From: Lepidodermella squamata
Lineage: Eukaryota; Animalia; Gastrotricha
Length of the DNA: 64,000 nt
Direction of reading: 5' to 3'
Assembly: GCA_047495785.1 (NCBI GenBank)
Contig: JBLDXI010000019.1
Location: forward strand, 1-64,000
Below the pieces are notes generated by a model, which saw only the letters and a program-made list of their open reading frames with translations, was not told where the DNA came from and did no database searches. The translations under genes were made by a program, and so were the position numbers. The first letter of the stretch is position 1. The number at the start of each line of letters is the position of its first letter. Below, piece after piece: positions 1 through 32,339 of this stretch.

Positions 1-1863
1 GGCCACCCAGCCTGCTTTCCAGAGAACCAATTTAATTTTTTGCTGCGAAAAACGTTCGGAGAGCTGGCATATGACACTGCAAAACGCGAGGAGCAGCTGA
101 GACAAAATAATTATAAACTGACAACGATTTATGCTTGCGAGTTCAAATCAATGTTAGCGCGCAATCAGGAGCTAGCTAAAGCACTGGAGGCAGCTGTTTC
201 CGTAATCCCGCCGATAAAGCCTCGATCAGCTTTGCTTGTGATAATTATTCAAAAATTACATTTTTAATCATAATTTTTTTTTTAATTGAAGGGCGGAAGG
301 TGTGAAGTACACCGCTGTTTCTTCGAGAAAGATGCCAATACTAGCTTGTTTTACGTTGATATAAACTCCATGTATCCATTTGTTCTGTGGTCGAAAGACT
401 TCCCGTGTCAAGATGTATCAATGCAAGTTTTAAGGTGGCGTTTGGATGATGCGAAATTGAGGGCAAAGTTTTTTGATACAACGGACCCAGCGTTTGGCCT
501 GATATCTTGCAAGATAGTACCAAACGCTGCTTTGATAATTCCCTGTCTCCCATGGAAATACGAAGATCGATTAGTATTTATCAGTTGTAGGACTTGCTAC
601 GTCGAGAAAAATTCAAAAACGAGATGCAATCATAATGATGAAGAGCGTGCTCTAACAGGTGTGTGGACTACTGAAGAGGTACGTATGGCTGTCGAGAAAT
701 TCGGGTATAGCCTTCAATCCGTTTTCGAAATATGGCACTACGAGTCCCGAGGAAATTTGAACTTTAAGGATTTTATAATATCGCTTCAAAAGCTCAAGTT
801 GGAACATACACAAATAGCCGCTAATCTTGACGTAGAGAAATATGTGTCTGATTGCCGAGCGAAGTATGGTATCGATTTAGACACGCAGGCTATGCTATCG
901 CCGAATCCTGCTATGAAGCAGATATCGAAGATCCTACAGAATAGGTAGATGGCGTTGTTTTTTAGCACTGGTCTTGGTCTTATATCCCTCGTAGCTTTTA
1001 CGGCAGATTTTGTCTCCGAAGCAATAATTCTACTGTGAAATATCTTGATTCGCCAGAGCAACTTATAGATCTGTTCGAAAGTCCAGGGAAAGTTGTTCAC
1101 ACCATACTGCCAGTTGGCCCTGATGACGAATCTCAACGAGTCCGCGTTTCATATTCCGATGCTCCAGATCACGAACAACCCTGTCCGAGCAATTCAGAGA
1201 TAATAGCCGCTTTCATAACGTCGTATGCAAGAATTTTGTTGTACGAAGAGGTTGAAGGAAGCTATTCGAAATCAATAATTTTTAAAGCTCTTTGCTTTCT
1301 AGATGGCTCGACTCGGTTCGAGGGTAGTCTATTGCGATAGTAAGCATTTTTTCAATTTCCGAGATTTTTTTCAAATTCAATTTTTTAAGCGGATTCCTTA
1401 ATTTACACGCATCAAGAGGGCGAGTATAAAATTCCAGAGGGACCCTTCATGGGTGAATTCAAATCGGAATTAAGCGATGGCGAAATCATTGAATCATGGG
1501 TTTGCATCTCGCCAAAGTCATACTCATTCGTAACTAATTTCAGGTATCGATGAAAAAATAATTTCACTGCGGATTTTTCGAGGCTTTGATATTTTCAGAT
1601 CTGAGCTCAAGTTCAAAGGAATAACTCAGAGCCTCGCAGGGAAAAAATTGTCACATGAATCTTTAGTCAAGCTGTTATTTGAATCATTGAGCGAATCTGC
1701 GCATCCATCTCTGACTCTTGATCAAACCAGATTCCACCGGCGGCACGTTCCGGCTTCAGTGACTCTTGAAACGCTTGAAAAAAGAATAGCGCCACATTTG
1801 AATGATAAACGAATATTTTGCCCTACATCCTTTACTTCAATACCTTACGGGTACCGGGTATAA
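1..1863 (+). CDS. Protein-primed family B DNA polymerase (pPolB), 5' end outside window; introns at 238-291, 945-994, 1251-1302, 1340-1389, 1544-1598
   Basis: Splicing five GT-AG introns of 50-55 nt gives one open frame of 533 aa with PRSALL^GGRCE, YVDINSMYP (motif A), KILQN^SFYGRF (motif B), YCD^TDS (motif C), ISPKSY, KFKGI and C-terminal SIPYGY. Bases 1-170 resemble the tail of the Vsr-like nuclease insert of Polinton pPolBs (GHPACF...T..RE..L...Y....IYACEF). Confidence 0.95.
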
Positions 1864-1895
1864 CTCTTTCATGCATTCTTCTTCTATTAGAAATT

Positions 1896-2348
1896 ATGTC
1901 AGACAGCATTTCACCGGATCGATTGGCTCCTGAGAGTGTAGCCTCTTACGAGTTTGTAAATTCTGAAGTTACCTGTTGCATTTGCCTTGGAATCATGCTT
2001 ACACCTGTACACATTTCCAACTGTCAACACGCATTCTGCGAAACCTGCATTTGTCGATGGGGCGATCGAGTTGAAGCTGGTAAAAAAGGTGGTTTGGTGG
2101 CGTATATGTACTCGAAGGCTACTTGCCCGAAATGCCGCCAATTATATACTTGCTTGGATCTCACCCCTGGGCCGGCTGTTGTAGATCGATTAGTCTCCCT
2201 TTTGCAGTTTAAATGCGTGAATGAAAAGCGCGGATGCTCAGTCAAAATGGACTATCTCAGTCTCATGGAGCATCAAAAGAAATGCAATAAACGGAAAGTA
2301 CCAAAATATACTGGAAATTTTAAATTTCTTCGTCAAAAAGCTGATTAG
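1896..2348 (+). CDS. RING-finger E3 ligase with a SIAH/TRAF-type zinc finger (RNF41/TRAF-like N-terminus)
   Basis: C3HC4 pattern CCIC...CQHAFCETC...CPKC, then C.NEKRGC...H..KC. ATG at 1896 follows an acceptor-like ttctattag. Confidence 0.88.
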   Translation: MSDSISPDRLAPESVASYEFVNSEVTCCICLGIMLTPVHISNCQHAFCETCICRWGDRVEAGKKGGLVAYMYSKATCPKCRQLYTCLDLTPGPAVVDRLVSLLQFKCVNEKRGCSVKMDYLSLMEHQKKCNKRKVPKYTGNFKFLRQKAD

Positions 2349-2454
2349 GGATTCAGCTTCCCAATTGAATCAAGTCTGAAATCCATCTGAAATAAATCCA
2401 TATGCACCTAAACAAAAATATGTTTGAATTTTAGGATCAAATTAACTAAAAAGA

Positions 2455-2792
2455 ATGAAAAGTTCGTACATTTTGGAGCTTAAACTGACGAATGGCAGTA
2501 CTTTCTACACGACTTTCGATGAATCATCGACACTTGCTGACATCATAGCACATCTACACGCTGCTTGGCCGCCAAAATGGGGCGACAAGCTTGACCTGGA
2601 TCAATTACAGCTCTACTGCAAAGATCGCGCAATCAGAAAGTCGGTGCTGCTCAAGTGTAAGTAAATTTCTACCTTTGAACCGAGCTTGATGATTTTCCAA
2701 TCCTAGCATTGAGTCGCCGCGAACTACATGGCTACAAGCATCGCACTTATTATGTCACTATTGTCTCAAAAAGCCCTCTTCCCGAGCTTTGA
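2455..2792 (+). CDS. UBL3/MUB-like ubiquitin-fold protein, copy 1 (intron 2657-2706, 95 aa)
   Basis: LKLTNG...TLADII.HL...WPPKWG....LQLYC..R; the spliced tail YVTIVSKSPLPEL resembles UBL3 HLVARETLPEP. Confidence 0.75.
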
Positions 2793-2864
2793 ACTTTCTG
2801 CTAATGTATAGTAAAGAAAAATACTATATTCGAGCTTGTTTTAAACTTAGATTTGTAACTTAAA

Positions 2865-3189
2865 ATGGAACCTCAGGCTTTTGAGGAATTTTCAGCTAAT
2901 GTCGCTTGGAGAAATGGAGATCAAATTAGCTTGCGATGCCATGCGTCAATAAAAGTAGACGCTATCCTACAGCAGATATATGACGAATGGCCAGATAGTT
3001 GGGGTGAGAAGCCGCATGTGAAAGAACTCCGACTATGTTACAACGGTAGATGCTTGCATAGGTTCTACAAACCAATAAGAAAGTATTTCCCAAGTATTTC
3101 CCAAGTGTAATTGTTTTTATCCAACAGAACTCTGCAACTATCTCCGAGTGAACGTTTTGGAGCTGACAGCTACAGCGCTTCATGTCTAA
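2865..3189 (+). CDS. UBL3/MUB-like protein, copy 2 (probable short intron ending at 3127; 3' end uncertain)
   Basis: ILQQIYDEWPDSWGEKPHVKELRLCYNGRCLH aligns by eye with UBL3 IAKHVYDNWPMDWEEEQVSSPNILRLIYQGRFLH. Confidence 0.75.
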
Positions 3190-3258
3190 TGATTTTCTGC
3201 TATGTATAAAAGATGGGTAAAAAAAGGGATCTTTTTAATTTTAGAAACATTTGAAAAA

Positions 3259-3516
3259 ATGACTAAATGGAATTTGAAAATTCGTATCGATAAGCGATTG
3301 AGTCCGAAATTAACTCTCAGAACGATTGGCGATCTTAAGGTAAATTCTCAATTGCGAATCCCGCTAATTATAAGAATTATACTCTGGCAGGTTTTGTTTA
3401 TACGCAATTGTCCATGCCAACCATGCGTGATTGTCTCTGGAACGACAAAAGCGAAGATCTTTCGTCTATCTGACATTGAGACCGCAATTTGCTTTTACAA
3501 ACAGCGTGAAAATTAA
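3259..3516 (+). CDS. Small hypothetical protein (about 68 aa after an in-frame intron at 3340-3390)
   Basis: ATG follows a tttag acceptor. AG|GTAAAT...GGCAG defines a 51-nt intron. Same strand and spacing as its neighbours; no recognisable domain. Confidence 0.5.
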   Translation: MTKWNLKIRIDKRLSPKLTLRTIGDLKVNSQLRIPLIIRIILWQVLFIRNCPCQPCVIVSGTTKAKIFRLSDIETAICFYKQREN

Positions 3517-3573
3517 GTCGTGAAAAAAGTGATTCAGGAATGGTTTTTTTATCTTAGGTTATAAAAATAATTG

Positions 3574-3924
3574 ATGGAAGCATCTCAAGATTGCGATTGG
3601 AGCAGCTGCGAATCCCTTGATTCTTGCAATTCTGTTGATTCTTCAACTCAAACTTTGCCTTATGAGCCGAACTCTTCAGCTCTTCTCCTCAGGTGGGTTA
3701 CTGGCGCTAAGGTCATCATAAAATGTCGAAAGTCGACTCAGATGCGCGAAATTTTGAATAAGCTGTGGGAAAAATGGCCCGATGGTTGGACAAGCCGGCC
3801 TTCGGACCCCAGAAAATTGAAAATTTACTACGGCCGGCTCAACATTCAAGACTTGACTAACGTCTACGAATTGAGCAAGGATCTTGACAAACGTCATTTG
3901 GTATTCAACGTACGCTGCGAGTAA
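3574..3924 (+). CDS. UBL3/MUB-like protein, copy 3
   Basis: LLLRWVTGAKVII.C...ILNKLWEKWPDGW...KLKIYYG...HLVFNVR; clearly paralogous to copies 4 and 5. Confidence 0.75.
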   Translation: MEASQDCDWSSCESLDSCNSVDSSTQTLPYEPNSSALLLRWVTGAKVIIKCRKSTQMREILNKLWEKWPDGWTSRPSDPRKLKIYYGRLNIQDLTNVYELSKDLDKRHLVFNVRCE

Positions 3925-4023
3925 TAGTTCATCACAATTCAAACAGTTGAAATCTGTATTAACCTGAATAATTGACGCAGTAAAATTAAATGGTTATGAT
4001 ATTCTTTTTTAGGCGAATTAATA

Positions 4024-4374
4024 ATGATATACTCGGCTGCGATTGAATCCCCTTCGATGAAACCTTCAATTCCAGTAATTAACCTCGTTCAGGATGACGT
4101 AGCTATCTTACTGAAGTGGGAGAATGGCAACAAAGTAATCATGCGTTGTCGACCATGGCTATCATGCGACTCCGTGTTAGCAGCGCTGGGGGCTGACTGG
4201 CCAAAAAATTGGGATAAAATTGGACCCACTGACAGATTGCATTTGCACTACAATAAACTTTGCCTTCCCCCTTTTGGTTATAAAGTCGGAGATTTTCTGA
4301 AAGATAGCAGACATCGCTTTGTAACGCTACATGTAAAATCATTTGAGCCCAAGATCAAGCGCATTTGTCCTTAG
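4024..4374 (+). CDS. UBL3/MUB-like protein, copy 4
   Basis: ILLKWENGNKVIMRC...ADWPKNW...LHLHYN...FVTLHVK. Confidence 0.75.
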   Translation: MIYSAAIESPSMKPSIPVINLVQDDVAILLKWENGNKVIMRCRPWLSCDSVLAALGADWPKNWDKIGPTDRLHLHYNKLCLPPFGYKVGDFLKDSRHRFVTLHVKSFEPKIKRICP

Positions 4375-4424
4375 TAAAGTGTTTAATTAACTCTGATTTT
4401 TCTAGTGCAGTTAACTAAAATCGC

Positions 4425-4766
4425 ATGGAAATAGCAAACGATATCTCTCAAACCCTAAGCAAGACGGAAGACTCGACAATTCCAGTAATTGACATAGTTC
4501 GGAACGATCTGACTGTCATTCTTAAGTGGGTTACTGGAGATAAAGTAATCATGCACTGTGAAGAGTTGGATTGTCCGTATGACATTATTCGCAAGTTAAT
4601 GGCGACCTGGCCAAAAAGATGGAAATTCGATAAATCGGCTGAACCTCATACATTATACTTATGCTACGGCGGTCTTAAGCTGCCAGGGTGGCACAGGATG
4701 AGGTTTTTTTTACCTGCTAATGATTCCAGCCGACGATATGTAACACTTGATGTCAAATATATGTAA
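4425..4766 (+). CDS. UBL3/MUB-like protein, copy 5
   Basis: VILKWVTGDKVIMHC...ATWPKRW...LYLCYGG...YVTLDVK; shares an IPVI.(L/I)V..D leader with copy 4. Confidence 0.75.
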   Translation: MEIANDISQTLSKTEDSTIPVIDIVRNDLTVILKWVTGDKVIMHCEELDCPYDIIRKLMATWPKRWKFDKSAEPHTLYLCYGGLKLPGWHRMRFFLPANDSSRRYVTLDVKYM

Positions 4767-4873
4767 TATTAATCGTTTGATTTTATCCGTTTATTCAACG
4801 CATAGGTAATAGGTATTCAATAAATATATCATATGTAATTTCGGGTAATTTTTTATTTTTTTAGGAAAATATT

Positions 4874-5790
4874 ATGATAGCTGACTTCTACAATTCTGGA
4901 TTGCCCCCGAATTTCGCGTGGAAAATAGTGAAATCATTGAAGGTTTGCTGACAAGTAGTCTGGACCTAAAACGCATTTTTTGTATTGTAGCCGTTCGACA
5001 ACTTGCGACCAAAATCTGTTCAGCGAGCATCAGGATTCAGGCGGTTGAAAGTGATGTGCATTTCCGACACGCACGACAGCGATTTTGTTTCAAAGGTGTC
5101 GAAAGCTCAAACATCGGCTCAAGCTGATATTTTGGTTCACGCGGGTGACATTACGACTTTCGGAAGTTCAGCAGAACTACGTCGATTTGATCGTCTGTTA
5201 TCAAGCGTCAAGCCAATGTTCCGAGAAGTAGTTGTTATCGCTGGAAATCACGATCGATGTTTGCAAAGCGGCGAATATGAGCTGAAAAATTGCATCTACT
5301 TGCAAGATGAGGCGATCAGAATCAGCGGTCTTCTGTTTTACGGCACGCCGTGGTAAGTTTCTTGAATCGTGTTTCTTGATTCAAGTTTCTTTCGCGAAGG
5401 ACACCGTGGACTGACAGTCGACATTCGGCTTTCACGCGTGCGAGAGGTCGAGAAATTAGCGCGAAATGGGAGATGATTCCCAGCGATACCGACATATTAG
5501 TTACTCATAGTCCCATGTTGGGTGTTCTGGATCAAACATCGAGTGGTGAGCGGATCGGCTGCCTTTCGCTCGCTGATCAAATTTTAACTCGCATTAACCC
5601 AAAGCTTCACATTTTTGGGCACGCTCATTTCAGTAATCATGTAACAAAAGAAAAATTGAATTCAACTTTTTCTTTTTATTAAGGTCGCGGAGAATTTGAA
5701 ACTGATAATACATTGTTTGTGAATGCAAGCCTGTGTGACGACGAGAACAAGTTACAGTTCAACCCGATATCTGTGGAGTTGCTCTACTAA
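4874..5790 (+). CDS. Calcineurin-like metallophosphoesterase, MPPED1/2 (239FB) type; introns 4943-4990, 5353-5399, 5633-5683; 256 aa
   Basis: The five metal-binding motifs are present: ISDTH, HAGD, AGNHD, THSP, FGHAH. Family motifs YLQDE, YGTPW, KW..IP..TDIL.TH and FVNAS appear after splicing. Confidence 0.92.
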
Positions 5791-6587
5791 CGATCTGGCT
5801 TTGGAATCCATGCTGCCCATCCGCCGCTTTGTCCGCGGGTTTTCGGAGGTGATGTCAACACTCGAGGATTCGTCGCCTTTATCGATCCCGCATCGACTAT
5901 TTTGTGTAGTCGTTCTGCTGAATCCGTTGTCAATGGAGCATTCGTATCCGTAATATTTTGTAGGAACTCTAACAACGGCCATGAATCAACTACCGTTCCC
6001 GAATTCGGACTTAACAGATTGATCGTTTTATTTGGTGAAATTACAACCCTCTTGGACCTATTGGGTCCTTTCAAATCACTAAGTATCTTAGTCACCAGCA
6101 ATCTCCGAGTTTTCGACTGGAAGCTATCAATGATTTCTTTAAAGTCCAAGGGTTTTTCAGGAGATACCTCCTCGCCCTGTTCTATTTTGGGAGAGCGAGT
6201 TGCTAACGGAGTTGTAGGTCGTTGCTTCACAGGGGATAAATTAGCTTCAGTCTCGCTTATCTCATTTTCATCCTCTAATGGATCATTAGATTTGGGTTCT
6301 GATTTTGTCTCTGCAATTTTTAATTCGCTTACAACGCGCTGAAACTCGCGGAAGGCAGAGTTGAATTTGTACAGCTTCCGACGAGCGTCTTCCTCTACAT
6401 TGTCGGAAGATGACAATGCAGTTAGCATTTGCATTGCGTTACGCTTCAGCAAGCCTTTCTGCGCAGGTTCAGATGCTTCCTTGATTAATCGTTTACTCTC
6501 TGTCTCAACGGTATTCTTTGCGTCGTCATGCTTTAGCGCTCCTGGAACAAGGGCATAACGCTTTGCAAACTGGCCGAATCCACTCAT
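5787..6587 (-). CDS. Polinton protein of unknown function (probably virion-associated)
   Basis: Last gene of the virion operon. N-terminal KRYALVP resembles the K.M.LVP start I recall from Polinton ORFs at this position; C-terminal QSGG motif. Confidence 0.6.
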   Translation of the reverse strand: MSGFGQFAKRYALVPGALKHDDAKNTVETESKRLIKEASEPAQKGLLKRNAMQMLTALSSSDNVEEDARRKLYKFNSAFREFQRVVSELKIAETKSEPKSNDPLEDENEISETEANLSPVKQRPTTPLATRSPKIEQGEEVSPEKPLDFKEIIDSFQSKTRRLLVTKILSDLKGPNRSKRVVISPNKTINLLSPNSGTVVDSWPLLEFLQNITDTNAPLTTDSAERLHKIVDAGSIKATNPRVLTSPPKTRGQSGGWAAWIPKPDR

Positions 6588-6666
6588 TTTCGTGTGGCTT
6601 TGACAATTGCTTCGACCACTGTGGGAAGTATTCCTAAAATTGGTCTCATTTATCAATTTTTTTTAA

Positions 6667-6999
6667 TTAAAAAATAAGCAAACCAGCTACGGCTGACAAT
6701 AGCGGTACTACAAAAGCTGCCCCGCCTTTCTGAACTATGTACTGACGATTACTGCTAACAGTTCGCTCGCTTTCACCTAATTTTCTGATAGATTTACTAA
6801 ATCTTCGCAGCTTTTTCGCTAATCTCGGCGAAATCTGAAGGTTCTTGTTGAGGAGATTGAGGCAAACTTCGCTTATAATTCTGATGACCGTATCCGGAGC
6901 AATAGATAACAACTGCCTACGCCGATCAATAGATTTTGCTCGAACTATTTCTCTTATAAAACCCAAAACGCGCTGCGATTTATCGTATGACTTGCGCAT
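6667..6999 (-). CDS. Basic Polinton core protein with an adenovirus pX-like C-terminus
   Basis: ISEVCLNLL..N......KKL......IRKL...QKGG followed by a hydrophobic helix AAFVVPLLSAVAGLLIF, like the pX tail GGFLPALIPIIAAAI. Confidence 0.75.
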   Translation of the reverse strand: MRKSYDKSQRVLGFIREIVRAKSIDRRRQLLSIAPDTVIRIISEVCLNLLNKNLQISPRLAKKLRRFSKSIRKLGESERTVSSNRQYIVQKGGAAFVVPLLSAVAGLLIF

Positions 7000-7055
7000 A
7001 TCTTTAGACCATTATAAATGTGAACAAACACCTCATTTATATATACATTTTATTA

Positions 7056-7799
7056 TTATTTCGGTACATAAATTACACCAGGGAAAGCGCCCACCCCAGT
7101 TCTATAGCGCATAAACTCCGGACAATCAGGACTGAGGTCGATAAGTAAGTAACGATGTCCGCCTTTGCTTGTTTCCATTTCGAAACTCTCCACTACGAAC
7201 CGCCAGCGCAGCGGTTCCAATTGCAGGGCGAGATAGCGGAACGATGTGAGATCTGCACGATGCCGAAAAATGAATAAATATTTAGCATTCAGCGTCATTT
7301 CTTTGGACATTTTTCCTTTGCAGAATATTGCTTGCTGAGTAAAAAATACAGATAACTTCAAATGATGAGAGTATCGATAAAATAATTGAAGAATTTTCGG
7401 ATCGTTTCTTCCTGTATCATACAAGTCATCTATCACTAACAATGTATAAGTATCATCTCCACTGCTTGATTGGAATTCTTCAAAGTTTAGTTGCTCTAGA
7501 CCTTTGCGAAACTCAACAGTAAGACCACGGCTTTTTTCTACTTCATCCTTTATTTGCTGATGCATCCCGGTCTCAACCCCGTAAAACCATAACACTCGAT
7601 GCGGCGCTGGTGATATGGATTCCGGGTCGTTAAGAATTCGTCGAATAAGCCATGTTTTGCCTAATATACATAGGATGAAATGAGATAATATTTATGAATC
7701 GCACAACTAACCTGCGCCGCTAGGACCTATAACGAGCGAGCAGAAAGGGGCTTGCAAGCTAAGCGATACATCTATTTCTGATGGCAAATCGCCAGACAT
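7056..7799 (-). CDS. Genome-packaging ATPase (A32/FtsK-like); intron 7661-7711; 230 aa
   Basis: The spliced protein has Walker A VIGPSGAG^KT, Walker B LLVIDDL, YSHH..SVFFTQQ, LNAKYL.IF and YLLIDL. Its ATG (7799) lies inside the 3' end of the protease gene. Confidence 0.93.
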
Positions 7800-8338
7800 G
7801 ACTGGTGACCGCTACAGGTACCGAAATGACGGGACATTTTCTCAGATTTGCTAACTTTAAATATTCGATTCACCTGATCAACTATGAAATTATCCGTATT
7901 TTTATCAGGAAGCATTTGCGCAATCTTATCCATAGATGCTCCCCTCGCGAACCAGTGAAGCGTTAAATATGCGTAGTAGCCACAAACCGCCGTTGAATCG
8001 CTCTGATATTTATGCTTGTTATAAATGTAATTATTTTTCGAGTTGATGTTCGTTAAAAATGCTTCTATAGCCTTGTTATAGAAGTTCCCGCGCCGACCAT
8101 AGCTATCAAAGAATAAAGCCGGCTCGTTTGTTTGTGGGACATAAATTGACAGCCAATGACTTCCCGGCTGACCAGCGGCGTCTGTATTTACAATTAGAGC
8201 CATGGGACGCTCGCTCATCCCCTGATATCGTGATAGATAATCCCATGGTATAGTCTTTTTAACTGGAATTTTATTGAGATTTCTATCACAGCCAAGTAGA
8301 CAGTCCAACTGGAGGGTATTTAGTTGACCTCCGTTCAT
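7772..8338 (-). CDS. Adenain-like cysteine protease (capsid maturation)
   Basis: IVNTD....PGSHW (His), FFDSYG (Asp) and YQS..TAVCGYY (Gln/Cys) catalytic motifs. Confidence 0.93.
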   Translation of the reverse strand: MNGGQLNTLQLDCLLGCDRNLNKIPVKKTIPWDYLSRYQGMSERPMALIVNTDAAGQPGSHWLSIYVPQTNEPALFFDSYGRRGNFYNKAIEAFLTNINSKNNYIYNKHKYQSDSTAVCGYYAYLTLHWFARGASMDKIAQMLPDKNTDNFIVDQVNRIFKVSKSEKMSRHFGTCSGHQSCLAICHQK

Positions 8339-8343
8339 GCTAT

Positions 8344-9633
8344 TCACGTAAAGTCGACCAGGACGTTTCGTGCAAAATTCAGCTCGATAACTTGATCCGT
8401 CTCAAAGTAACAGAGAAGTATCAGGTTATCGGCTAATGCTTTTTTAAATAATAAATCAATAGAAAGCACGCCACTTTTAACCAGACTGTATGCACTACGA
8501 CTTGAGTCGGGTGAGAGATCGAATCCTATAAAGGAAAAGCCGTCCTTGCTGTATTCTGATAGCTTTATACCATTTGTTTTAGTCGAGTAAGGAAACAGCG
8601 TCTCCCTAAGAGCACTCATAGCCCGAGCCGATGTATTTTCGCCCTCTCCAAATTCGAGCGGGCTGTTTGGGACATGCTCGCTATCTATTGTGACAGACAC
8701 GCGCTGAACGCCAGCGTTTTTAAAGTTGTAAGGACTGGTGAAGATGTCGCCTTTGAAATCACTATCGCTAACGAAAGACATCACCAGTCGTCTGGGTATT
8801 TTCCCTAGTATAACGTGCCCAAGGTTGTAGTTAAGAGATCCCTTTTGCAAATTCAAGACTTTAATGAACGATCTGTTCACACCATACTTGGCCGTGGTTT
8901 TTGTTAGTGTTCGATTCAGCGCCAACGTAAATTGCGGAGATACGCGAACGCGACGCAATTTGAGCTTAGCATCAGTAACTGTTAGTGTATAGTCCATCTT
9001 GTCCCCGGCAGGTTTCATCAGAGCAAACGCCTCAGGTGCGCGTATGAAAGTCAACTTGAAGGGCGTAGCCGGAATCAGAAATTTCGGCTGAGAGAATAGC
9101 TCTAAATGTGGCTTGCCTATAAGAACCATCTCGCCTTGCTTTGCCCAAGCAAGTCTGGCGGTATGACCCTTGCCAGCAGGATCGCTGACTTTACCAGCTT
9201 CGTCTGAATAATAGCCTTGCAATGCCAAGTAGCTATCCTTAGCTGTCGGATCACAACTCAGTAAAGTTGAAATATAAGCCTTATAATTATATGTCGGAGC
9301 CGGTTCGCTGATTTGCGTATTATTTATGCTCATATCTATTTGACTGAACATACTATGCAACAGAAGGTTAACCGGCGAGCAAGTAAGGTCAGCTAAAGTC
9401 TTTGACGCGTCGCCATTCACTATTTTACATGTTATTTCCACGTATGAACGGCTCAAATCTGTCCAATCATTGCTTGGAGGGATGTCAAAATCAATGCGTG
9501 ACTGATTGGCGATCGCGGAAACTGGTCCATATTCTGTAATGTAATTGCTCTCTATCTCAACTTGAGTAGGGTTCAACGAAAAGACATTCAGCTCAGCGCG
9601 AATTGCGTTTTCAGAAGAGGGGTGGACGTACAT
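8344..9633 (-). CDS. Major capsid protein (double jelly-roll, hexon-like)
   Basis: 429 aa, intronless. EL.VF...PTQ..I, TDLSRSY, PVNLLLHSMFSQID, YNYKAYI.TLL, LFSQPKFL, G.IPRRL, SPYNFKN and F.GFDLSPD are typical Polinton MCP motifs. Confidence 0.93.
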   Translation of the reverse strand: MYVHPSSENAIRAELNVFSLNPTQVEIESNYITEYGPVSAIANQSRIDFDIPPSNDWTDLSRSYVEITCKIVNGDASKTLADLTCSPVNLLLHSMFSQIDMSINNTQISEPAPTYNYKAYISTLLSCDPTAKDSYLALQGYYSDEAGKVSDPAGKGHTARLAWAKQGEMVLIGKPHLELFSQPKFLIPATPFKLTFIRAPEAFALMKPAGDKMDYTLTVTDAKLKLRRVRVSPQFTLALNRTLTKTTAKYGVNRSFIKVLNLQKGSLNYNLGHVILGKIPRRLVMSFVSDSDFKGDIFTSPYNFKNAGVQRVSVTIDSEHVPNSPLEFGEGENTSARAMSALRETLFPYSTKTNGIKLSEYSKDGFSFIGFDLSPDSSRSAYSLVKSGVLSIDLLFKKALADNLILLCYFETDQVIELNFARNVLVDFT

Positions 9634-9684
9634 GGCAGTGAGATGATTATTTAATCTCGGTTTTAACTCCTTTAAATAGGGTTT

Positions 9685-10147
9685 TCAGAAGGAAACGCGT
9701 TTTGTGCTCCTCTTTTTTTTCGTTGGCATTTTTTGTTTGGCTACGTACCGACGACGACGACGCCGACCAGTTCCGATTTGCGAGCCTACTCTAGATATTA
9801 CATCTTTTGCAACTCCCTTTAACCCTTCCACTGCACGTTGTTTCAAAATCGCTCTGGGATTGGCATCTTTGTTTTCAAGAAGATCCGTTGCAATGTTGGC
9901 TGTTGTATGACTCAAATTCCGAAATATCGGTCCAAGTAAGGGAATGATATGATTGCGAAAAAACCCAGCAGCTACGCTCCCGAACCCGTTTCCTGTCTAT
10001 ACTAACACATTTTACACATTTTCACCGATTGTTACCGATTATTTTTACCTGGTATGAAGGAAAAACGATAGACTGTCCGCGAAATGGCTCTATCCCATAT
10101 CCACTTTGTTGCAACAAAAAAGACTCGTAAGCATCGGCTGAATACAT
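9685..10147 (-). CDS. Polinton core protein with an Arg/Lys-rich tail; intron 9997-10048; 136 aa
   Basis: Spliced: MYSADAYESFLLQQSGYGIEPFRGQSIVFPSYQ^TGNGFGSVAAGFFRNHIIPLLGP...QIGTGRRRRRR...KKKRSTKR. This matches the Q.G.G...F.G...Q.G.GFG..F pattern of the ORF between the capsid genes. Confidence 0.8.
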
Positions 10148-10248
10148 GTTTTATTTAGCTTTGTGTACAGTTTAAATCGAACCTAACTAATCCATTGTCT
10201 TTTTTTACAGCTGAGCTTTCCAACTTTTTCTAAAAACGGATGAATGGC

Positions 10249-11939
10249 TCATAAATAAATAAATAAATAAATAGCAATAGGTCTAATCTGAACTAATATA
10301 ACAGCCTTACCACTAACGAATTTTACAGGTAATCCAGAGTCTTTATATATTTGAATCTCAATAACAGACAAAACGCGACGTTTAATTGGGACAAATATGG
10401 GTTTTTCAAAAGTTTTCGAAAAAAAGCTTCCTTTGTCTATCGTTTTTTCCGTCGGAATTACTCGCAACAGGGGTGTGCGGGTATTTCCGACATACACGTC
10501 ATCAATTACGTCAGCGTACAAGAATAAGAAGGGCATTCCGTAATCAAGCTGGGGTGGAAATCTTGCGATCGCTTGATCGTCAACATGATGGATTGTGTAG
10601 AAATATTCTATTATCGATACAGGTTGCTCTTCGTGACTTGGCGGGTTTTGGTCATTTTGCGGACCAGATGGCTGAATTTCGACCGATGGGCTAGGAGCAC
10701 TTGATGACCGCTCTTTCACCGCTGTGCCGCTCTGATCTGACTGATCCATCGATGACTCGTCTGGCTCACTTTCATGCTGGTCTAGATCAACATTATCGTC
10801 AGGATTCTGATGTGTTGTCTCGTCAGGTAACAAATCTTTCTTTGCTGGATCCGTCGCTTTGTCTGACTCATTCTTCACAACTTCATCGTCACCAACCGCA
10901 GGGTCAGCCGGTTGATTATCATCTGGCTTCGCGGTCACTTGTTCATCTGGCTCAGCAGTCACTTGTTCATCTGGCTTCGCAGTCACTTGGTCTTCCGTTG
11001 ACTCGCCAGGCTTCTTATTATCACCCGATGGAATTGGCGGAAGCTTTCGCTTTCGTTGCGGTGGGTTACTGTCATTCGATACCTTTTTATCATTCGGATC
11101 TTGCCTATTCTCAGCTTCCGTCTCATCCTCTTTATCGACCTTTTTCACATCATCGTCAGCTGGGGGTGGCAACTCTGCATCTTCATCGGATCTTCGAGAT
11201 CTAACTTTACCGGGTACTCTTTCCGGTAAAAATAGCCCACCTTTGAATCTAACTTTGTTGAATTCATTCACATCTGCTGATATGGAACGGTATGGTATTC
11301 TCTGCCTACTTCCAGTAACGACATAGCCAAGCATTAGCCTGAACGCTGCGCCCATTTTAACCACGTCATTTGAAAACCCTTCGTCCTTTCTATCGAATTT
11401 GTGGAATGCAACAAAGGCACCAGGGTACCCTAAAACTTGCGCGAGTTCCTTAGGTATAAATATTCCCCATTTACCAATGGCGACCTTCAGTGACACGCGA
11501 TTTGTGATTTGCACGTACTCAAATGTAATATTCTTCGTTATGCTCTGAACTTCCTTCTCCATGTGAGTAAGCAATTCTTCTATGTTGGAGTAATATACTC
11601 CTCCGACCTGGCATTCATGCAGATTTTTCGTGTCAAATGGATCCGGAGCTTTGTATGCATCAGGTTGTTCCAACCATTCGCAATCAAAAACGTAAAAATT
11701 TGTCGGTTCTATCGACTCCCAAGCTGATGGACCGTTAAATTCCACGAGACCCATTTCCCATTGACCTAAATTTTTTTTTAGTGCGGGCTATAAGTGACTT
11801 TCATTTTTATCATACCCACTGTGCCAAGATCAATATCGTTGGCCAACTTGACGCGAAATGACGACGCTGTGTTGTCAGGAAACAGATCGTTGGATGCGTT
11901 CGATGGTAAGTAAAGTAAAAATTCTTGCCGCGCGCTCAT
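10249..11939 (-). CDS. Minor capsid protein (penton) with a long acidic/Pro-rich insertion; intron 11766-11815; 546 aa
   Basis: Exon 1 FLLYLPSNASNDLFPDNTASSFRVKLANDIDL^GQWEMGLVE and the C-terminal LFLYADVI....VGN..TPLLRVIP...P.FVP......IEIQI..D.G.PV.F..GK are classic penton ends. Confidence 0.9.
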
Positions 11940-12169
11940 GTCGTCGTGTTATTAGCAATGCGATGAAATAGCCGATCCCTCCAAGACCAGTAGATTTCAA
12001 TAGAAAAATATGTGGCGCAGAGAGCTAACAGCGATATTATTCCGAGACCTTTTTTTCTCCTACTAACTGCAGCTGCTAGCCTACTGCTAACACTGCTGTG
12101 CGGCGAACTACTTTTACTTGCTCTTTCGTGTGATTCTTCAGGTGCCTGAGGAGACTCTGTTCCACACAT
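11936..12169 (-). CDS. Small single-TM protein (77 aa)
   Basis: RRKK is followed by hydrophobic GLGIISLLALCATYFSIEIYW. Its stop overlaps the penton start (ATGA) and its start abuts the upstream stop. Confidence 0.55.
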   Translation of the reverse strand: MCGTESPQAPEESHERASKSSSPHSSVSSRLAAAVSRRKKGLGIISLLALCATYFSIEIYWSWRDRLFHRIANNTTT

Positions 12170-12250
12170 TTATCGGCGATGCACGCGTTTGTTACCGCGT
12201 TTGCGTGCTGTGGATTTTCGTTTCCGGATAGCTCGTCTAGGACCAGGCAT
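12170..12250 (-). CDS. 26-aa protamine-like basic peptide MPGPRRAIRKRKSTARKRGNKRVHRR
   Basis: Exactly fills the gap between the integrase stop (TAATG overlap) and the next ATG. TATATAAA lies 34 nt upstream. Too short for the ORF track. Confidence 0.6.
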   Translation of the reverse strand: MPGPRRAIRKRKSTARKRGNKRVHRR

Positions 12251-13497
12251 TACTTTCCCCTCTTTTTGGCCGATTTTCGCTCCTTTATATATTCATTTTG
12301 GACGTCTTTTATTTGGTCAATTGGCTCCCATGAACTTTGAGATTTGGGAAACCCAACCCAGCTAACTAAAACCCGCGTTGTTCCATCCTTGAATTTTCGC
12401 TTCTCTTTACTCACTTCATCTATCAGGTATTCATCCGGTAATTTGACTTTTTGAAGCTCATAGTGATAAAAAACGCCTGCAACAGGTTCGGTGTAGTCGC
12501 CGTTTTCTGTGCTCCATCCATTCAACTTGTATGTATGCGGCCCGTACCTGTCTGGCTTGATGGCTTTCGCTATTTTGAAATACTCATCCGTATAAGTAAA
12601 ATGACGAGCGCGGGCAAAAACGCCTCTCTCTGCTGAGATCCGTACTACATCGTCTAATTTAAAAGCTGATGGCTGCCTGCGACCTTCTTCTATGTCCGCT
12701 CCGAAAACGTTATTGTAAGCTATATACTGCTTAGGGCTGTCCTCGAAAATATCGAGATTAAGCTCCTTGTCACTCCCGATTTTACGCCCACTCTCCTTGT
12801 CATTGTACAACTCTGCGGGTGTGAACTTGGTAGATGAGTGACGGGAGTCATTGTAAACTCTAACGATGTTCTGCAAATCATCGACGAATCTACCGTCGTT
12901 TCGCGCCATCGCAAGCTTAGCCAGTCGCATGCGCAGTAATTTGTTGAATGACTCTATTTGAGGAACTTTCTTTTCCGAATTCGTAGCGAAAAAATGAATG
13001 GATTCTGATTTCAAATATCGCTCAACGTGTTGGTTGAAAAATTCTGAACCTCTATCGAACACAACAGCGTACGGTTTTTGCTTAGCGTCCTTCATAACTA
13101 TTTTCAGAGCTCTAAGTGTTTCGGGACCGGTTTTATTTCGCATCGTTTGCACCCAGGCGAAACGACTGTATGTGTCCTTGGCTGTAAGTATATATTGCAC
13201 GTTGTCGTTCTCGCCCTTTACATTTCTCACGTCCACCAAGTCCATAGCGAACAAACTTCTTCGACTAAAGCATGCCACCTTCCGGGTTACTCGATTCCTC
13301 GTTCCGACCTGCTTATAAACGCTCCACGTACGTTGATTTCCCAACCAGTTCCTTACTTGCCGCATTGTGATCTTTCGACCTGGATACTTGACCCTGTAGG
13401 CTTTGTAAAGAGCTGATACGCTACCGAGACCGCCTGGTTCACCCGGGTCGAAGTAAATTTTTCGCAAATCTCGGTCATCTTGATCTAACGTTGGCAT
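12250..13497 (-). CDS. Retroviral-type (rve) DDE integrase with a C-terminal chromodomain
   Basis: IYFDP..PGGLGS..LY, AMDLVD (D), VFDRGSEF (D), IESFNKLL (E), YN...HSST..TP, FK..D.VRIS and chromodomain YLIDEV...VLVSWVGFP...SSWEP. Confidence 0.95.
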   Translation of the reverse strand: MPTLDQDDRDLRKIYFDPGEPGGLGSVSALYKAYRVKYPGRKITMRQVRNWLGNQRTWSVYKQVGTRNRVTRKVACFSRRSLFAMDLVDVRNVKGENDNVQYILTAKDTYSRFAWVQTMRNKTGPETLRALKIVMKDAKQKPYAVVFDRGSEFFNQHVERYLKSESIHFFATNSEKKVPQIESFNKLLRMRLAKLAMARNDGRFVDDLQNIVRVYNDSRHSSTKFTPAELYNDKESGRKIGSDKELNLDIFEDSPKQYIAYNNVFGADIEEGRRQPSAFKLDDVVRISAERGVFARARHFTYTDEYFKIAKAIKPDRYGPHTYKLNGWSTENGDYTEPVAGVFYHYELQKVKLPDEYLIDEVSKEKRKFKDGTTRVLVSWVGFPKSQSSWEPIDQIKDVQNEYIKERKSAKKRGK

Positions 13498-13552
13498 TTT
13501 CGTTGTATATTCCAACTCTAGCGTTTTGCGTTTTAAATAGTGACATTCTGTA

Positions 13553-14467
13553 ATGGAAAAGTATTCTTACATCCGAGCTATTGGCTCAGGTTCTTTCGGC
13601 ACTGTCAGTTTACAGCGCAACATTCCCCTAAATCGAATGTTTGCAGTGAAAATGATAGATACTACGATCCCCTACAAACTCGAGTCTGCCACTCGGGAAA
13701 TTGAGTGCCTGCAAATACTAAAATCTGCGCCAAACGTTATTAGGTAGGCGACTGATATTGTTTTGACCACCGAATTACTTAAATCGTATAGACTGCATGA
13801 GGTTGTGTTCACCACTCGACGTGCATTTCTTGTGCTGGAATGTCACCTCATGGATATGAAATCCTTGATTGGAGTGATAACTCGACCCTGGCCACTTGTT
13901 CTACTAACCCGATGGTTAAACCAGCTTTTGACTGCTCTTGCATATATTCACGCTTGTGGAATAATTCATCGCGACATTTGCCCGCAGGTTTGTCAGTTTT
14001 TGTCTTTCAGCCAAGTTTTCAACACCTAATTACAGAATGTACTCCTGCAAACCAGCTGGGTCGATGTATCCCTCGCTGATTTCGGCATTTCGCGAACACT
14101 GCCCGACGACACCTGCCCAGATATGACCCCGGAAGTTACGGCGTTTCACTACCGAGCGATCGAAATAGTATTCCCTAAACCTCGATATACGAATAAAATT
14201 GATGTTTGGTCCCTAGCTGCTACAACTATTGAACTTGTTACACTTGCACCGTTTTTCTCCGCTCAATCTACTGTCAACATATTCAATAACATAAAATCTA
14301 AAACTTCCAGTCTTGATGATTTCTTTAGGTGTTTGAACACATTCGTTCACTGCGATTTCACCGAGTACAGGCAATTGCTTGAGCTACTGTTCTCAATGCT
14401 CAATAACAATCCTGAATCTCGTCCATCAGCAGATCAATCTCTAATTCTGCTCAATGCAATCTTATGA
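13553..14467 (+). CDS. CDK-like (CMGC) Ser/Thr protein kinase; introns 13744-13791 and 13988-14035; 272 aa
   Basis: GSGSFG, AVK, SATREIECL (PSTAIRE-like helix), HRDICPQ^N, ADFG, MTPEVTAFHYRAIE, IDVWS, NPESRPSA. Confidence 0.9.
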
Positions 14468-15101
14468 TATCAACATTTCGGTTTCCAACATTGTCGCAAC
14501 CTTCAACGTTGGAACTCCCATAGATCTACATCTCCTTGCTCAGCGTGGGGTTAATACGTTCTTCGATAGCAGGCAAATACCCGTATCAGTAAAGATCCGA
14601 TTCCCCAGTCACATTTCAGCAATGGTTTACTCATCAGGCCATGTTATAGTCATTGGAGGAAAAGGGTCGAAGGACACTGCGGATTTTGAATGCAAAGCCT
14701 TGGTCATCTTACACAAGCTACGGAATTGGATGTCAATTCCTTCTCTAATCTTCGATCGGTTTAATATTAGAAACATTGTCATAACAGGACAGCTACCTTT
14801 TCGATTTTTGCAAATTTCAACACTGTATTCGGAATTTTCATCGGTGAAAATGCCAGGATTCAAAATTGTTTACATACCTGAAATGTTCTGCGCTATGAGA
14901 CTTACCATCAATAATGTGAAAATTAGCTTTTTCCCAAGCTCTCATAAGTTTAATGTTGTCGGCGTTAAAACATTAGATCATGGGCTGAATATTGTTCGTA
15001 CTTTTGTCCAGCTCTGCATTGATATTCACGAAAAAGAGTTGACTGATTTGGGGTTAACCGAGCTAGATTTACTGTTCCTGAATTCCTGTTTCAATAATTA
15101 A
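14454..15101 (+). CDS. Divergent TATA-binding-protein family factor (TBP/TRF2-like)
   Basis: Two TBP repeats: ISVSNIVATFNVG.PIDL..LA.RG.N...AMVYSSGHVIVIG and FNIRNIV.TG.LPF...Y.PE.F.A......IS.F.S.K..VVG.K. Confidence 0.85.
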   Translation: MQSYDINISVSNIVATFNVGTPIDLHLLAQRGVNTFFDSRQIPVSVKIRFPSHISAMVYSSGHVIVIGGKGSKDTADFECKALVILHKLRNWMSIPSLIFDRFNIRNIVITGQLPFRFLQISTLYSEFSSVKMPGFKIVYIPEMFCAMRLTINNVKISFFPSSHKFNVVGVKTLDHGLNIVRTFVQLCIDIHEKELTDLGLTELDLLFLNSCFNN

Positions 15102-15135
15102 AAATTTATTATTCTTAGACAAGATTTATTGAGTC

Positions 15136-15747
15136 ATGGCATTGTCCGCACCAGGTGTTGAGCTGACTGTTTTCAATATAAATCCGCAACTGAACCTCGG
15201 AATCGATAATATGCCCAATGGACACTATCTTCGCAATCAGCAGGTGGAAAAATTACGAGCTGTGAAATCTCACTTTCTAAGGACAATGCACGGCTCTGTT
15301 GTTGTTGACATTGTATCTGGAAAATCCGGCGTTTGCGTCCTCCTACCTTACGTGCTCAAATCTAGCAGAGTTTTGGTGATTACGCCTTCTCAAGACATTA
15401 CACGACAACTAGCATGGGATTTTACCGGAAATTTGAAACCTGAAACAGCCTTCCTGTTTCGCGCAGGCGTTTACACCTTCTGGAAGACATGGCCGACCAT
15501 CATACCTAAATGTTGCATTTTCGATCACTCTTACAATTTTAATCAGGATTTCAACCCACCACCTCTCTTCATCACCAACAGCTTTGATTTGAACCTTATC
15601 CCTCTAAATCTTTTCGATTTAGTAACCGTTGTTAACGCACAAGATTTTCTACTTTCATCTTTGAAGCTCATCGCGGAACGTTTTAAAAAGGTCAAAGTAG
15701 TGTTCCTTGCAGACCGTAAGATTGCCGATTTCAACGTTATTATGTAA
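15136..15747 (+). CDS. Stand-alone, apparently inactive SF2 helicase N-terminal domain (ResIII/DEAD-like)
   Basis: Q motif LRNQQ, degenerate Walker A SGKSG and motif Ia RVLVITPS..IT.QL. The Walker B position reads FDLVTVVNAQ instead of FDLVIVDEAH. Confidence 0.7.
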   Translation: MALSAPGVELTVFNINPQLNLGIDNMPNGHYLRNQQVEKLRAVKSHFLRTMHGSVVVDIVSGKSGVCVLLPYVLKSSRVLVITPSQDITRQLAWDFTGNLKPETAFLFRAGVYTFWKTWPTIIPKCCIFDHSYNFNQDFNPPPLFITNSFDLNLIPLNLFDLVTVVNAQDFLLSSLKLIAERFKKVKVVFLADRKIADFNVIM

Positions 15748-16014
15748 CACTAGACTTGGGTGTCAGGTACTGGTTTCAGGTTCTTTTCTATTAATCCATG
15801 TTGTTAGCCCCATTAATGTCCATGTTCGATGATCCATTGATCAATAAAAATGAGATTCCGTAACGTGTTTTTTTGCTCGAGCGTCAAATAGGTGACTACC
15901 AGACATTCTAGATTTTTTGTTCTGAGATAGATTTCATAAAGTACCATAAAGTACCAAAAATTTGAGTCCTAATTTATTATTTAAAATTAACTTTTGACGT
16001 TGTTTCTTTTTAAG

Positions 16015-16474
16015 CTCCTCACACTTCCTCCTCTCAGGTGCTGATACGACGAGCGTACACCCTAATTACGGCACTGCTCTCGAGATTGCCGCCAAGTTTG
16101 GGAACAGTTTCCCAACAGCCGTGCTGACAATGATCAGAGCTAATCCTAAGTTGATTAACACCGTAGATGCGGTTAAAGGCTATTCGCCCCTACATCGAGC
16201 GGTACTTAACCATAACATTAAGATGATGGAGTTGCTTCTTGAAAATGGAGCTAACCTTGAGGTAATGTCAGTAAAGGGCGAAAGTCCTTTGAATCTGTTG
16301 ATGGGCTCCAACTGCTGTTATCCACAACTTCCAGTGGTTCAGTTCTTAATCGACAACGGTGCGAATATTAACAGTCCTGATTCGTCAGGCTGCACTCCTT
16401 TGTGTAAAGCGAAAAATGCCGGCAAGCGGCCGGAGATCGTGCAGTTTCTGATAGATCACGGGGCTAAATTTTAA
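16015..16474 (+). CDS. Ankyrin-repeat protein (last exon; start exon not resolved)
   Basis: The frame is open from the acceptor at 16014 and contains the repeats YGTALEIAAKFG, GYSPLHRAV...LLENGANLE, GESPL...LIDNGANIN and GCTPL..A...LIDHGA. Confidence 0.85.
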
Positions 16475-31687: not shown

Positions 31688-31881
31688 AAAATCGTCTGCA
31701 TCTTCTAAAAGTTTCAAGCGATGTTTAAAGATTAGCAAGCTCGAACTAAGCATATCTTCAAGTTATCTTTGCGGCCTGCCTTACACAGGTTCATGCAATG
31801 TTGTGCGCGCAATCTAGCCTTCTTTCACATTCAAAGGGAATAAAAAATCACTGGCTACGGTTGGGCTTTGGGTGTCCAAAA

Positions 31882-32153: not shown

Positions 32154-32339
32154 AACGTGTTTTTCTTAGCAGCTGTGCTGTGTTTTCGACCCCGCTGAGT
32201 CTGATTTTTACTTCAAATTATTGCCAAGTGTGCAGTAGTAAATTATATAAATTATATTGGATGGAAGAGGTCGAAGATTCATTTTTGTTCCACAAAATTA
32301 CACATGTTTCGGACTTGATTTTTTGCTGGCATCGCATTT

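What the first reader, a model, noticed from the sequence alone, without database searches (positions are those of the whole stretch)
1864..4874. Every plus-strand accessory ORF is preceded by a 3' splice acceptor: possible trans-spliced operon or shared-leader splicing
Seen: a T-rich tract ending in TAG lies 5-20 nt before the ATG of RING (AG ends 1890), UBL1 (2434), UBL2 (2850), ORF 3259 (3244), UBL3 (3557), UBL4 (4012), UBL5 (4405), MPPED (4864) and the helicase-like gene (15118). Intergenic gaps are only ~30-110 nt, too short for separate promoters. Several host genes here also show an acceptor just before the ATG. Inference: a polycistronic viral transcript is resolved either by host spliced-leader trans-splicing or by adenovirus-like alternative splicing to a common leader.
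Basis: partly seen in the sequence, partly recalled or inferred. Interest (0 to 1): 0.82.

Follow-up and report, generated by a model that had tools for sequence, protein, structure and literature searches.

The report
Leader-splice sites in Maverick cargo operon
A virus-like Maverick/Polinton transposon in an unidentified small animal has a string of tightly packed cargo genes, each preceded by a splice-acceptor-like signal that mostly lacks a matching donor, which likely means that one long message is cut into single-gene messages by the host's spliced-leader RNA, although no RNA data exist to show it.

Summary
All nine T-rich TAG sites are at the stated places, 5-20 nt before the ATG. They precede 9 of 11 plus-strand genes (0.8 expected from shuffles), 0 of 10 minus-strand core genes and 6 of 327 ORFs in distant Maverick loci. 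The region is the cargo arm of a young Maverick/Polinton in an animal I could not name. The sites end in TTAG more often than ordinary introns here (8 of 9 against 4 of 28). Only 1 of 9 has a good donor at normal intron distance, and 7 of 9 follow a poly(A)-like hexamer by 22-46 nt. [quoted passage not shown] It is untested: there is no RNA run, and SL use by this host is not shown. Rivals are gene-by-gene promoters (0.23) and an adenovirus/adomavirus-like shared viral leader (0.17). The 'gaps too short for promoters' argument fails, because core genes have TATA-like boxes 42-46 nt before the ATG. This scan noted similar things before on other DNA: SL-capped Polinton genes in sea squirts, and a gene-by-gene promoter reading in another Polinton.

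The parts
1..1863 (+). 3' part of protein-primed DNA polymerase B gene (start lies upstream of the window), with five predicted cis introns: 238-291, 945-994, 1251-1302, 1340-1389, 1544-1598
   Evidence: Pfam DNA_pol_B_2 E=1.4e-4 on one exon; introns predicted from reading frames and polymerase motifs; no RNA
1879..1890 (+). T-rich TTAG acceptor-like site, 27 nt after the pPolB stop and 5 nt before the RING ATG; no GT at 45-65 nt; a donor-like GT at 33 nt inside the pPolB end
1896..2348 (+). RING finger plus Sina/TRAF-type zinc finger gene
   Evidence: Pfam zf-C3HC4 E=9e-7, Sina_ZnF E=6e-4
2391..2434 (+). AATAAA (2391) followed by T-rich TTAG site (AG ends 2434)
2455..2792 (+). UBL1, UBL3/MUB-like ubiquitin-fold gene, predicted intron 2657-2706
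2810..2850 (+). AGTAAA (2810) followed by TTAG site (AG ends 2850)
2865..3209 (+). UBL2, UBL3/MUB-like, predicted intron 3083-3127
   Evidence: Pfam Rad60-SLD_2 26.4 bits, above cut-off 23
3205..3244 (+). TATAAA (3205; overlaps the UBL2 stop; poly(A)-like, and the only strict TATA-like box among the nine) followed by TTAG site (AG ends 3244)
3259..3516 (+). Small ORF of no known family, possible in-frame intron 3340-3390; not shown to be a gene
   Evidence: no Pfam hit; no Atlas hit
3546..3557 (+). T-rich TTAG site before UBL3 (no poly(A)-like hexamer found upstream)
3574..3924 (+). UBL3, UBL3/MUB-like
3979..4012 (+). AGTAAA (3979) and ATTAAA (3985) followed by TTAG site (AG ends 4012)
4024..4374 (+). 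UBL4, paralogue of UBL3 and UBL5
4373..4405 (+). AGTAAA (overlaps the UBL4 stop) followed by T-rich CTAG site (AG ends 4405)
4425..4766 (+). UBL5, paralogue
4819..4864 (+). AATAAA (4819) followed by TTAG site (AG ends 4864); the only one of the nine with a good donor at normal intron distance (52-59 nt)
4874..5790 (+). MPPED-like metallophosphoesterase gene, predicted introns 4943-4990, 5353-5399, 5633-5683
   Evidence: Pfam Metallophos E=2.5e-9
5787..13497 (-). Maverick core block on the opposite strand: packaging-ATPase-like gene 7056-7799, adenain-like protease 7772-8338, major capsid protein 8344-9633, small gene 9685-10147, putative minor capsid 10249-11939, rve integrase-chromodomain 12250-13497. 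No pre-ATG acceptor in 0 of 10 genes; three predicted cis introns (7661-7711, 9997-10048, 11766-11815)
9671..9678 (-). TATTTAAA box 45 nt before the capsid ATG
13532..13539 (-). TATTTAAA box 42 nt before the integrase ATG; on the plus strand it overlaps the AATAG before the kinase
13553..14467 (+). Protein kinase gene, predicted introns 13744-13791 and 13988-14035; no T-rich acceptor
14454..15101 (+). Divergent TBP-like gene overlapping the kinase end; only a weak CAG inside the kinase coding sequence
   Evidence: Pfam TBP E=3.5e-14
15097..15118 (+). ATTAAA over the TBP stop followed by T-rich TTAG site (AG ends 15118)
15136..15747 (+). Helicase-like (ResIII N-terminal-like) gene
   Evidence: Pfam ResIII E=0.0018, below cut-off
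15948..16036 (.). Likely right terminal repeat and end of the element
   Evidence: contigs hold this stretch twice; one contig leaves the window at 16036 into another flank, and another enters at 16033 from other letters and runs on into the ankyrin ORF

Best explanation
The cargo arm of this Maverick is likely transcribed as one or a few long pre-mRNAs that the host's spliced-leader RNA would cut into single-gene messages at the T-rich TTAG sites. In this model RNA polymerase II runs from the polymerase gene through RING, the UBL genes and MPPED, and separately through kinase, TBP and the helicase-like gene. Each upstream message ends after the poly(A)-like hexamer, or at the acceptor itself where none is seen (before RING and UBL3). 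The unpaired acceptor then takes the capped host leader 5-20 nt before the next ATG. The opposite-strand capsid and integrase genes use their own TATA-type starts instead. Shown: sites, enrichment, lack of donors at normal distance, hexamer layout, strand asymmetry. Inferred: that the sites are spliced, that the host has an SL, and that the genes are co-transcribed.
For: Acceptor-like sites precede 9 of 11 plus-strand genes against 0.77 expected, 0 of 10 core genes and 6 of 327 ORFs in 81 distant Maverick loci.

They are unpaired. The 28 predicted introns are 45-82 nt long (45-55 in the element). A donor scoring 4 or more at 45-65 nt is present for 20 of 28 introns (leave-one-out), 1 of 9 pre-ATG sites and 28 of 168 background TAGs.

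They are a distinct class: TTAG in 8 of 9 against 4 of 28 intron ends (P 1e-4), with more T in the tract. In 5 of 9 an in-frame stop lies between AG and ATG, so these are 5' ends, not internal coding exons.

A poly(A)-like hexamer lies 22-46 nt before the AG in 7 of 9 (2.3 expected), while a strict TATA occurs in 1 of 9 (0.9 expected). No 4-mer at a fixed offset is shared by more than 3 of 9. Ciona passages say that SL acts on unpaired acceptors and give intercistronic lengths of 23-30 nt (Oikopleura) and about 100 nt (C. elegans) (PMC1488885).

The helicase-like site lies 10 kb away beyond the antisense core block, so a single cis leader would need a second leader or read-through. A host SL needs neither.
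Against: No SL is shown for this host, which could not be named. No SL RNA family matched in the window. Host genes give little support: 4 of 14 have a T-rich YAG near the ATG, some host acceptors have good donors, and none of the host genes here is operon-spaced. Four of the nine sites have donor-like GTs scoring 4.3-5.2 at 28-33 nt, and MPPED has a strong one at 52-59 nt, so very short 5' UTR introns are not excluded. Poly(A) signals are expected under all three models. No branch-point motif was enriched before the sites or in the introns. An adomavirus uses acceptors right before ATGs with a cis leader.
Confidence: 0.55

Rival explanations
1. Each cargo gene has its own compact promoter in or just before the gap. 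The T-rich TAG is then part of a start signal (possibly read with help from the element's own TBP-like protein) or the end of a very short 5' UTR intron.
For: Core genes of the same element have TATA-like boxes 31-64 nt before the ATG (5 of 10), so promoters fit in such gaps. A-rich hexamers at 33-46 nt could serve as variant TATA boxes, and ORF3259 has a strict one. The element encodes a TBP-like protein. GTA occurs 28-46 nt before the AG in 6 of 9 against 2.2 expected (window chosen after seeing the data). An earlier AI note on another Polinton reached this reading (e1-9578067).
Against: Strict TATA 1 of 9 against 0.9 expected, loose TATA 3 of 9 against 2.9. The hexamers sit 22-46 nt from the AG, too variable for a TATA-initiator pair (fixed spacing is recalled knowledge). 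No shared word at a fixed offset. Bases after the AG are not conserved beyond a purine. Introns of 28-41 nt would be shorter than all 28 predicted introns (minimum 45).
Confidence: 0.23
2. A leader exon encoded by the element upstream of the polymerase gene is cis-spliced to each acceptor in turn, as in the adenovirus major late unit and adomavirus late genes.
For: Adomavirus passages: acceptors immediately upstream of the LO4-LO7 ATGs are used, with a three-exon leader (10.1101/341131). Unpaired acceptors with alternative poly(A) sites fit this too. The roughly 3 kb upstream of the window, where such a leader would lie, could not be read (a contig runs on there).
Against: In the adomavirus passages the leader feeds the late genes. 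Here the structural genes have no acceptors (0 of 10). Joins would span several kb past many donors in an element whose introns are all 45-55 nt. The helicase-like site would need a second leader, and the best donor-like GTs near the kinase start score only 2.7-4.4.
Confidence: 0.17
3. The sites are leftovers without current use, carried in when host genes were captured and multiplied by tandem duplication of the UBL unit.
For: Five of the nine genes are paralogues, so the sites are not independent.
Against: Four unrelated genes (RING, ORF3259, MPPED, helicase-like) have the same site at the same distance. The UBL proteins are only 21-25% identical to UBL1, yet the sites persist.
Confidence: 0.05

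Closest known systems
SL-resolved operons of tunicates (Ciona, Oikopleura) and C. elegans SL1-type operons (PMC1488885 passages; PMC7986045 passages)
   Same: Same-strand genes 30-110 nt apart, unpaired acceptor just before the ATG, poly(A) signal shortly upstream, AT-rich spacers
Adomavirus late (LO) genes and the adenovirus major late unit (10.1101/341131 passages)
   Same: Acceptors immediately upstream of ATGs in a small DNA virus of the same broad kind
   Different: There a cis leader feeds the late genes; here the acceptors precede cargo genes and are absent from capsid, protease and ATPase genes
Nematode Mavericks with intron-bearing cargo (wasp proteases, krma kinases; 10.1101/2022.07.12.499685 passages)
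   Same: pPolB, integrase, ATPase, adenovirus-like protease, capsids, plus host-like cargo with introns
   Different: Core genes there are described as intronless, while here pPolB, the ATPase-like gene and the putative minor capsid gene have predicted introns; 'splic', 'operon' and 'SL1' do not occur in that main text; the cargo differs (five UBL3/MUB-like genes, RING, MPPED, TBP-like)
C. elegans Cer1 retrotransposon (PMC3315495 passages)
   Same: A mobile element whose mRNA receives the host SL1 leader
   Different: An LTR retrotransposon with a single SL site, not an operon in a DNA element

Membership tests
Maverick/Polinton | Protein-primed DNA polymerase B | tested here: met
   Pfam DNA_pol_B_2 E=1.4e-4 on one exon, below cut-off; DTDS-type and C-terminal PYGY motifs read across exons (motif names recalled)
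Maverick/Polinton | Retroviral-type integrase | tested here: met
   Pfam rve 33.2 bits above cut-off, plus Chromo
Maverick/Polinton | Double jelly-roll major capsid protein | tested here: met
   Model pLDDT 88; Foldseek best hits mavirus and Sputnik capsids, E about 3e-15; 6274 relatives
Maverick/Polinton | Adenain-like protease and packaging ATPase | tested here: met
   Peptidase_C5 E=8e-4; protease and ATPase relatives in 34 and 10 of 81 capsid-bearing loci; Walker A motif split by a predicted intron
Maverick/Polinton | Terminal inverted repeats and target-site duplication | tested here: inconclusive
   Right end at about 16032-16036 with a stretch that contigs hold twice; left end lies outside the window
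SL-resolved operon | Same-strand genes with short gaps | tested here: met
   Stop-to-ATG gaps 32-107 nt
SL-resolved operon | Unpaired acceptor before each downstream gene | tested here: met
   8 of 9 lack a good donor at 45-65 nt; sequence-level result only
SL-resolved operon | Non-genomic SL joined at the acceptors | not testable with these tools
   No RNA holder listed
SL-resolved operon | Host has SL RNA genes and trans-spliced mRNAs | tested here: inconclusive
   No genome held; no SL family in the window; transcripts of relatives could not be fetched; host genes mixed
SL-resolved operon | Co-transcription from one promoter | not testable with these tools
   needs RNA
Adenovirus/adomavirus shared-leader unit | Leader exon(s) with a strong donor encoded upstream in the element | not testable with these tools
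   Region upstream of pPolB is outside the window
Adenovirus/adomavirus shared-leader unit | Leader feeds the late structural genes | tested here: not met
   0 of 10 core genes have a pre-ATG acceptor

The most novel reading that the evidence does not exclude
A capsid-encoding Maverick has built a eukaryotic operon of up to nine genes (polymerase plus eight cargo genes) that it expresses through the host's spliced leader, and keeps separate TATA-driven starts for its structural genes. The sites would then also be the first sign of SL trans-splicing in an animal lineage that has no named proteins in the databases searched, and SL dependence would limit the hosts such an element can move between.
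Probability: 0.35. Interest if true: 0.75.

Novelty: new variant of a known kind. Interest (0 to 1): 0.52.

Why it matters
If RNA confirms it, a virus-like DNA element uses host trans-splicing to pack many genes at 30-110 nt spacing. That would tie Maverick gene expression, and the fate of horizontally moved cargo, to whether the host has an SL. It would also give a sequence-only marker for SL use in poorly sampled animal groups. The two strands suggest two expression modes in one 16+ kb element. None of my seven searches on this topic listed a paper on SL trans-splicing of Maverick/Polinton genes, but the library lacks most subscription journals. This scan has AI notes of the same idea in sea squirts, so the idea is not new to the scan.

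Tried and rejected
RNA evidence: no RNA holder listed. The single run X1 behaves as DNA contigs, shows no splice joints in 1-16000 and may be the source sample, so it is not independent.

Naming the host: AHCY is 89% identical to one unnamed protein, 80-83% to four more, and about 76% to fish. A second search gave no named member. A tree puts the window exon in a supported clade of six unnamed rows, apart from vertebrates, arthropods, gastropods and Strongyloides (48 rows chosen by hand from the AHCY hits). The ion-channel search found no relatives.

Fetching transcripts of host relatives to look for a shared leader: the pattern scan was empty.

Close Maverick relatives: none in viral contigs with the window capsid or P0131. 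One distant locus and 80 metagenome loci have 27-41% capsid identity and no cargo homologues, so conservation of the sites could not be tested. A TBP-like scan returned no locus.

Fusion by cis-splicing from internal donors: 8 of 57 donor-acceptor pairs would be in frame and open, which gives no sign of design.

Branch-point motifs: not enriched in either class.

Corrected on the way: the minus-strand test used two internal ATGs and treated the core as intronless; it was redone with corrected starts with the same result. The kinase 'acceptor' was dropped because it overlaps the integrase TATA box read on the other strand.

The tapeworm densovirus paper (PMC6880638), the nematode Polinton papers (10.1101/2023.08.22.554363; 10.1101/2024.01.15.575659) and the Oxyrrhis paper (PMC12721341) had no passage on SL use by the element for the terms I searched.
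Full report
What the region is. Window 1 to about 16036 is the larger part of a Maverick/Polinton. The plus strand carries the 3' part of a protein-primed polymerase (stop 1863), then RING, five UBL3/MUB-like genes, a small orphan ORF and an MPPED-like phosphoesterase. The minus strand (5787-13497) carries an ATPase-like gene, an adenain-like protease, a capsid protein and an rve integrase. The capsid has 6274 relatives, and its model (pLDDT 88) matches mavirus and Sputnik capsids. A second plus-strand group (kinase, TBP-like, helicase-like) follows at 13553-15747. In the one public run, contigs list no other letters over 1-7698, one contig leaves the window at 16036 into a different flank, and another enters at 16033 from other letters and runs on into the ankyrin ORF. 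I read this as a young insertion with more than one copy. The run may be the source sample.

The host. It is an animal (metazoan SRP RNA; Cys-loop channel and BTB genes) with short introns. It could not be named: its AHCY groups with five unnamed proteins, apart from the named rows. No genome is held and no RNA holder is listed.

The observation. A T-rich TAG 4-25 nt before the ATG occurs in 9 of 11 plus-strand genes, against 0.77 expected from shuffles, and in 22 of 210 AT-rich ATGs across the window. It occurs in 0 of 10 minus-strand genes and in 6 of 327 ORFs of at least 100 codons in 81 distant Maverick loci (that count includes spurious ORFs). The rule was written after seeing the sites, and five genes are paralogues, so the P values are generous. 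The kinase and TBP-like genes are the exceptions.

Are they ordinary intron ends? I predicted 28 cis introns from reading frames and homology, 16 in the element and 12 in host genes, without RNA. They are 45-82 nt long, 45-55 in the element. Their ends vary, and only 4 of 28 are TTAG, against 8 of 9 pre-ATG sites (P 1e-4). With a donor matrix built from these introns, 20 of 28 score 4 or more when left out, against 1 of 9 pre-ATG sites at 45-65 nt and 28 of 168 background TAGs. The exception is MPPED, which may have a normal 5' UTR intron. Against this, four sites have donor-like GTs scoring 4.3-5.2 at 28-33 nt, and GTA occurs 28-46 nt upstream in 6 of 9 (2.2 expected). These would be introns shorter than any predicted here, and they partly coincide with AGTAAA/TATAAA hexamers. 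Five of nine spacers hold an in-frame stop, and only 8 of 57 internal-donor joins would be open and in frame, so the sites mark 5' ends.

Layout of the gaps. A poly(A)-like hexamer lies 22-46 nt before the AG in 7 of 9 gaps (2.3 expected). A strict TATA lies there in 1 of 9 (0.9 expected), and no 4-mer at a fixed offset is shared by more than three. Host 3' regions use the same hexamers. The core genes differ: 5 of 10 have a TATTTAAA-like or TATATA box 31-64 nt before the ATG. This shows two kinds of gene start in one element.

Host genes. Four of 14 have a T-rich YAG within 25 nt of the ATG. LGIC1 and BTB1 have acceptors with good donors 54-57 nt upstream, and so probably 5' UTR introns. BTB2 has an unpaired TTTAG at 11 nt, and AHCY has a CTAG at 41 nt with no good donor at 44-85 nt. 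This neither shows nor excludes host SL use.

Mechanism. I favour host SL trans-splicing of a cargo operon (0.55). It explains unpaired, unusually strong acceptors, short gaps with upstream poly(A) signals, and the isolated site at 15118 with one assumption, that the host has an SL. Passages of PMC1488885 state that SL acts on unpaired acceptors and give operon gaps of 23-30 nt in Oikopleura and about 100 nt in C. elegans. The abstract and discussion of PMC11155486 add that trans-spliced acceptors have weak paired donors and AU-rich upstream regions. Separate promoters (0.23) remain possible, because promoters are compact here and the element encodes a TBP-like protein, but I found no fixed spacing or TATA enrichment. 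A shared viral leader (0.17) has a precedent in adomaviruses (passages of 10.1101/341131), but there it feeds late genes, which here lack acceptors. The 3 kb upstream of the window, where such a leader could lie, was not readable.

Comparison and novelty. The element passes the Maverick tests that could be run. Membership of the SL-operon class is met on layout and untested on the defining feature, the leader itself. A mobile element taking a host SL is known for Cer1 (passages of PMC3315495). Nematode Mavericks carry intron-bearing cargo, and that preprint's main text has no hit for 'splic', 'operon' or 'SL1'. Searches listed no paper on SL use by Mavericks; I saw listings and passages only, bioRxiv supplements were closed, and most subscription journals are missing. 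Other papers seen only as passages: PMC7986045, PMC12582326, PMC6880638, PMC12721341, 10.1101/2023.08.22.554363 and 10.1101/2024.01.15.575659. Unchecked AI notes of this scan report RNA-supported SL capping of Polinton genes in sea-squirt genomes and a gene-by-gene promoter reading in another Polinton. I used them as leads, and the second prompted the promoter tests. Verdict: a real and strong sequence signal, most likely SL trans-splicing of a Maverick cargo operon, unproven; a new variant of a known kind; interest 0.52.

Noticed in passing
window 238-1598 (+), 7661-7711, 9997-10048, 11766-11815 (-): Core Maverick genes carry predicted spliceosomal introns of 50-55 nt: five in the visible part of pPolB and one splitting the ATPase Walker A motif. 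The long pPolB ORFs in L001, L034 and L055 are unbroken, and nematode Maverick core genes are described as intronless.
   Followed up: partly
window 14454-15101 (+): The element encodes a divergent two-repeat TBP-like protein next to a kinase and a helicase-like gene; no homologue in the 81 distant Maverick loci.
   Followed up: partly
window 2455-4766 (+): Tandem family of five UBL3/MUB-like ubiquitin-fold genes beside a RING ligase-like gene; best single-stretch solved relative is UBL3 (1wgh, 2gow; E 2e-5). They lack a clear C-terminal CAAX by eye.
   Followed up: partly
window 16033-16474 (+): The element appears inserted into a host ankyrin-repeat gene; a contig without the element runs into the ORF at 16033.
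   Followed up: partly
L055 (minus strand, 1239-codon pPolB) and L071: Two distant Maverick loci have a T-rich CAG directly against the ATG of the polymerase ORF, either an upstream exon or a leader site in another host.
   Followed up: no
window 30539-41536 (+), fragment 44803-45159: Four tandem Cys-loop ion-channel-like genes with unbroken coding sequence and a shared putative 5' UTR intron; no relative passed E 0.001 in the protein search.
   Followed up: partly
window 61046-62506 (-): Host AHCY has a predicted GC-AG intron (62050-62100) and a frame change near 61346-61348 against P0001, perhaps an assembly error; an inverted 60-nt copy of part of it lies at 60630-60689.
   Followed up: no
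window 47821-48425 (-): SRP RNA gene next to two tRNA genes.
   Followed up: no
window 33157-34452 (+): Reverse-transcriptase ORF of a non-LTR element among the ion-channel genes.
   Followed up: no
window 16761-17483 (-): Secreted-looking protein with 63-nt (21-residue) Gly/Pro/Ser-rich repeats and a TATA-type promoter.
   Followed up: no
window 6587-6649 (-): A 20-codon ORF ends across the ATG of the 266-codon core gene (overlapping stop and start), a possible coupled-translation arrangement.
   Followed up: no
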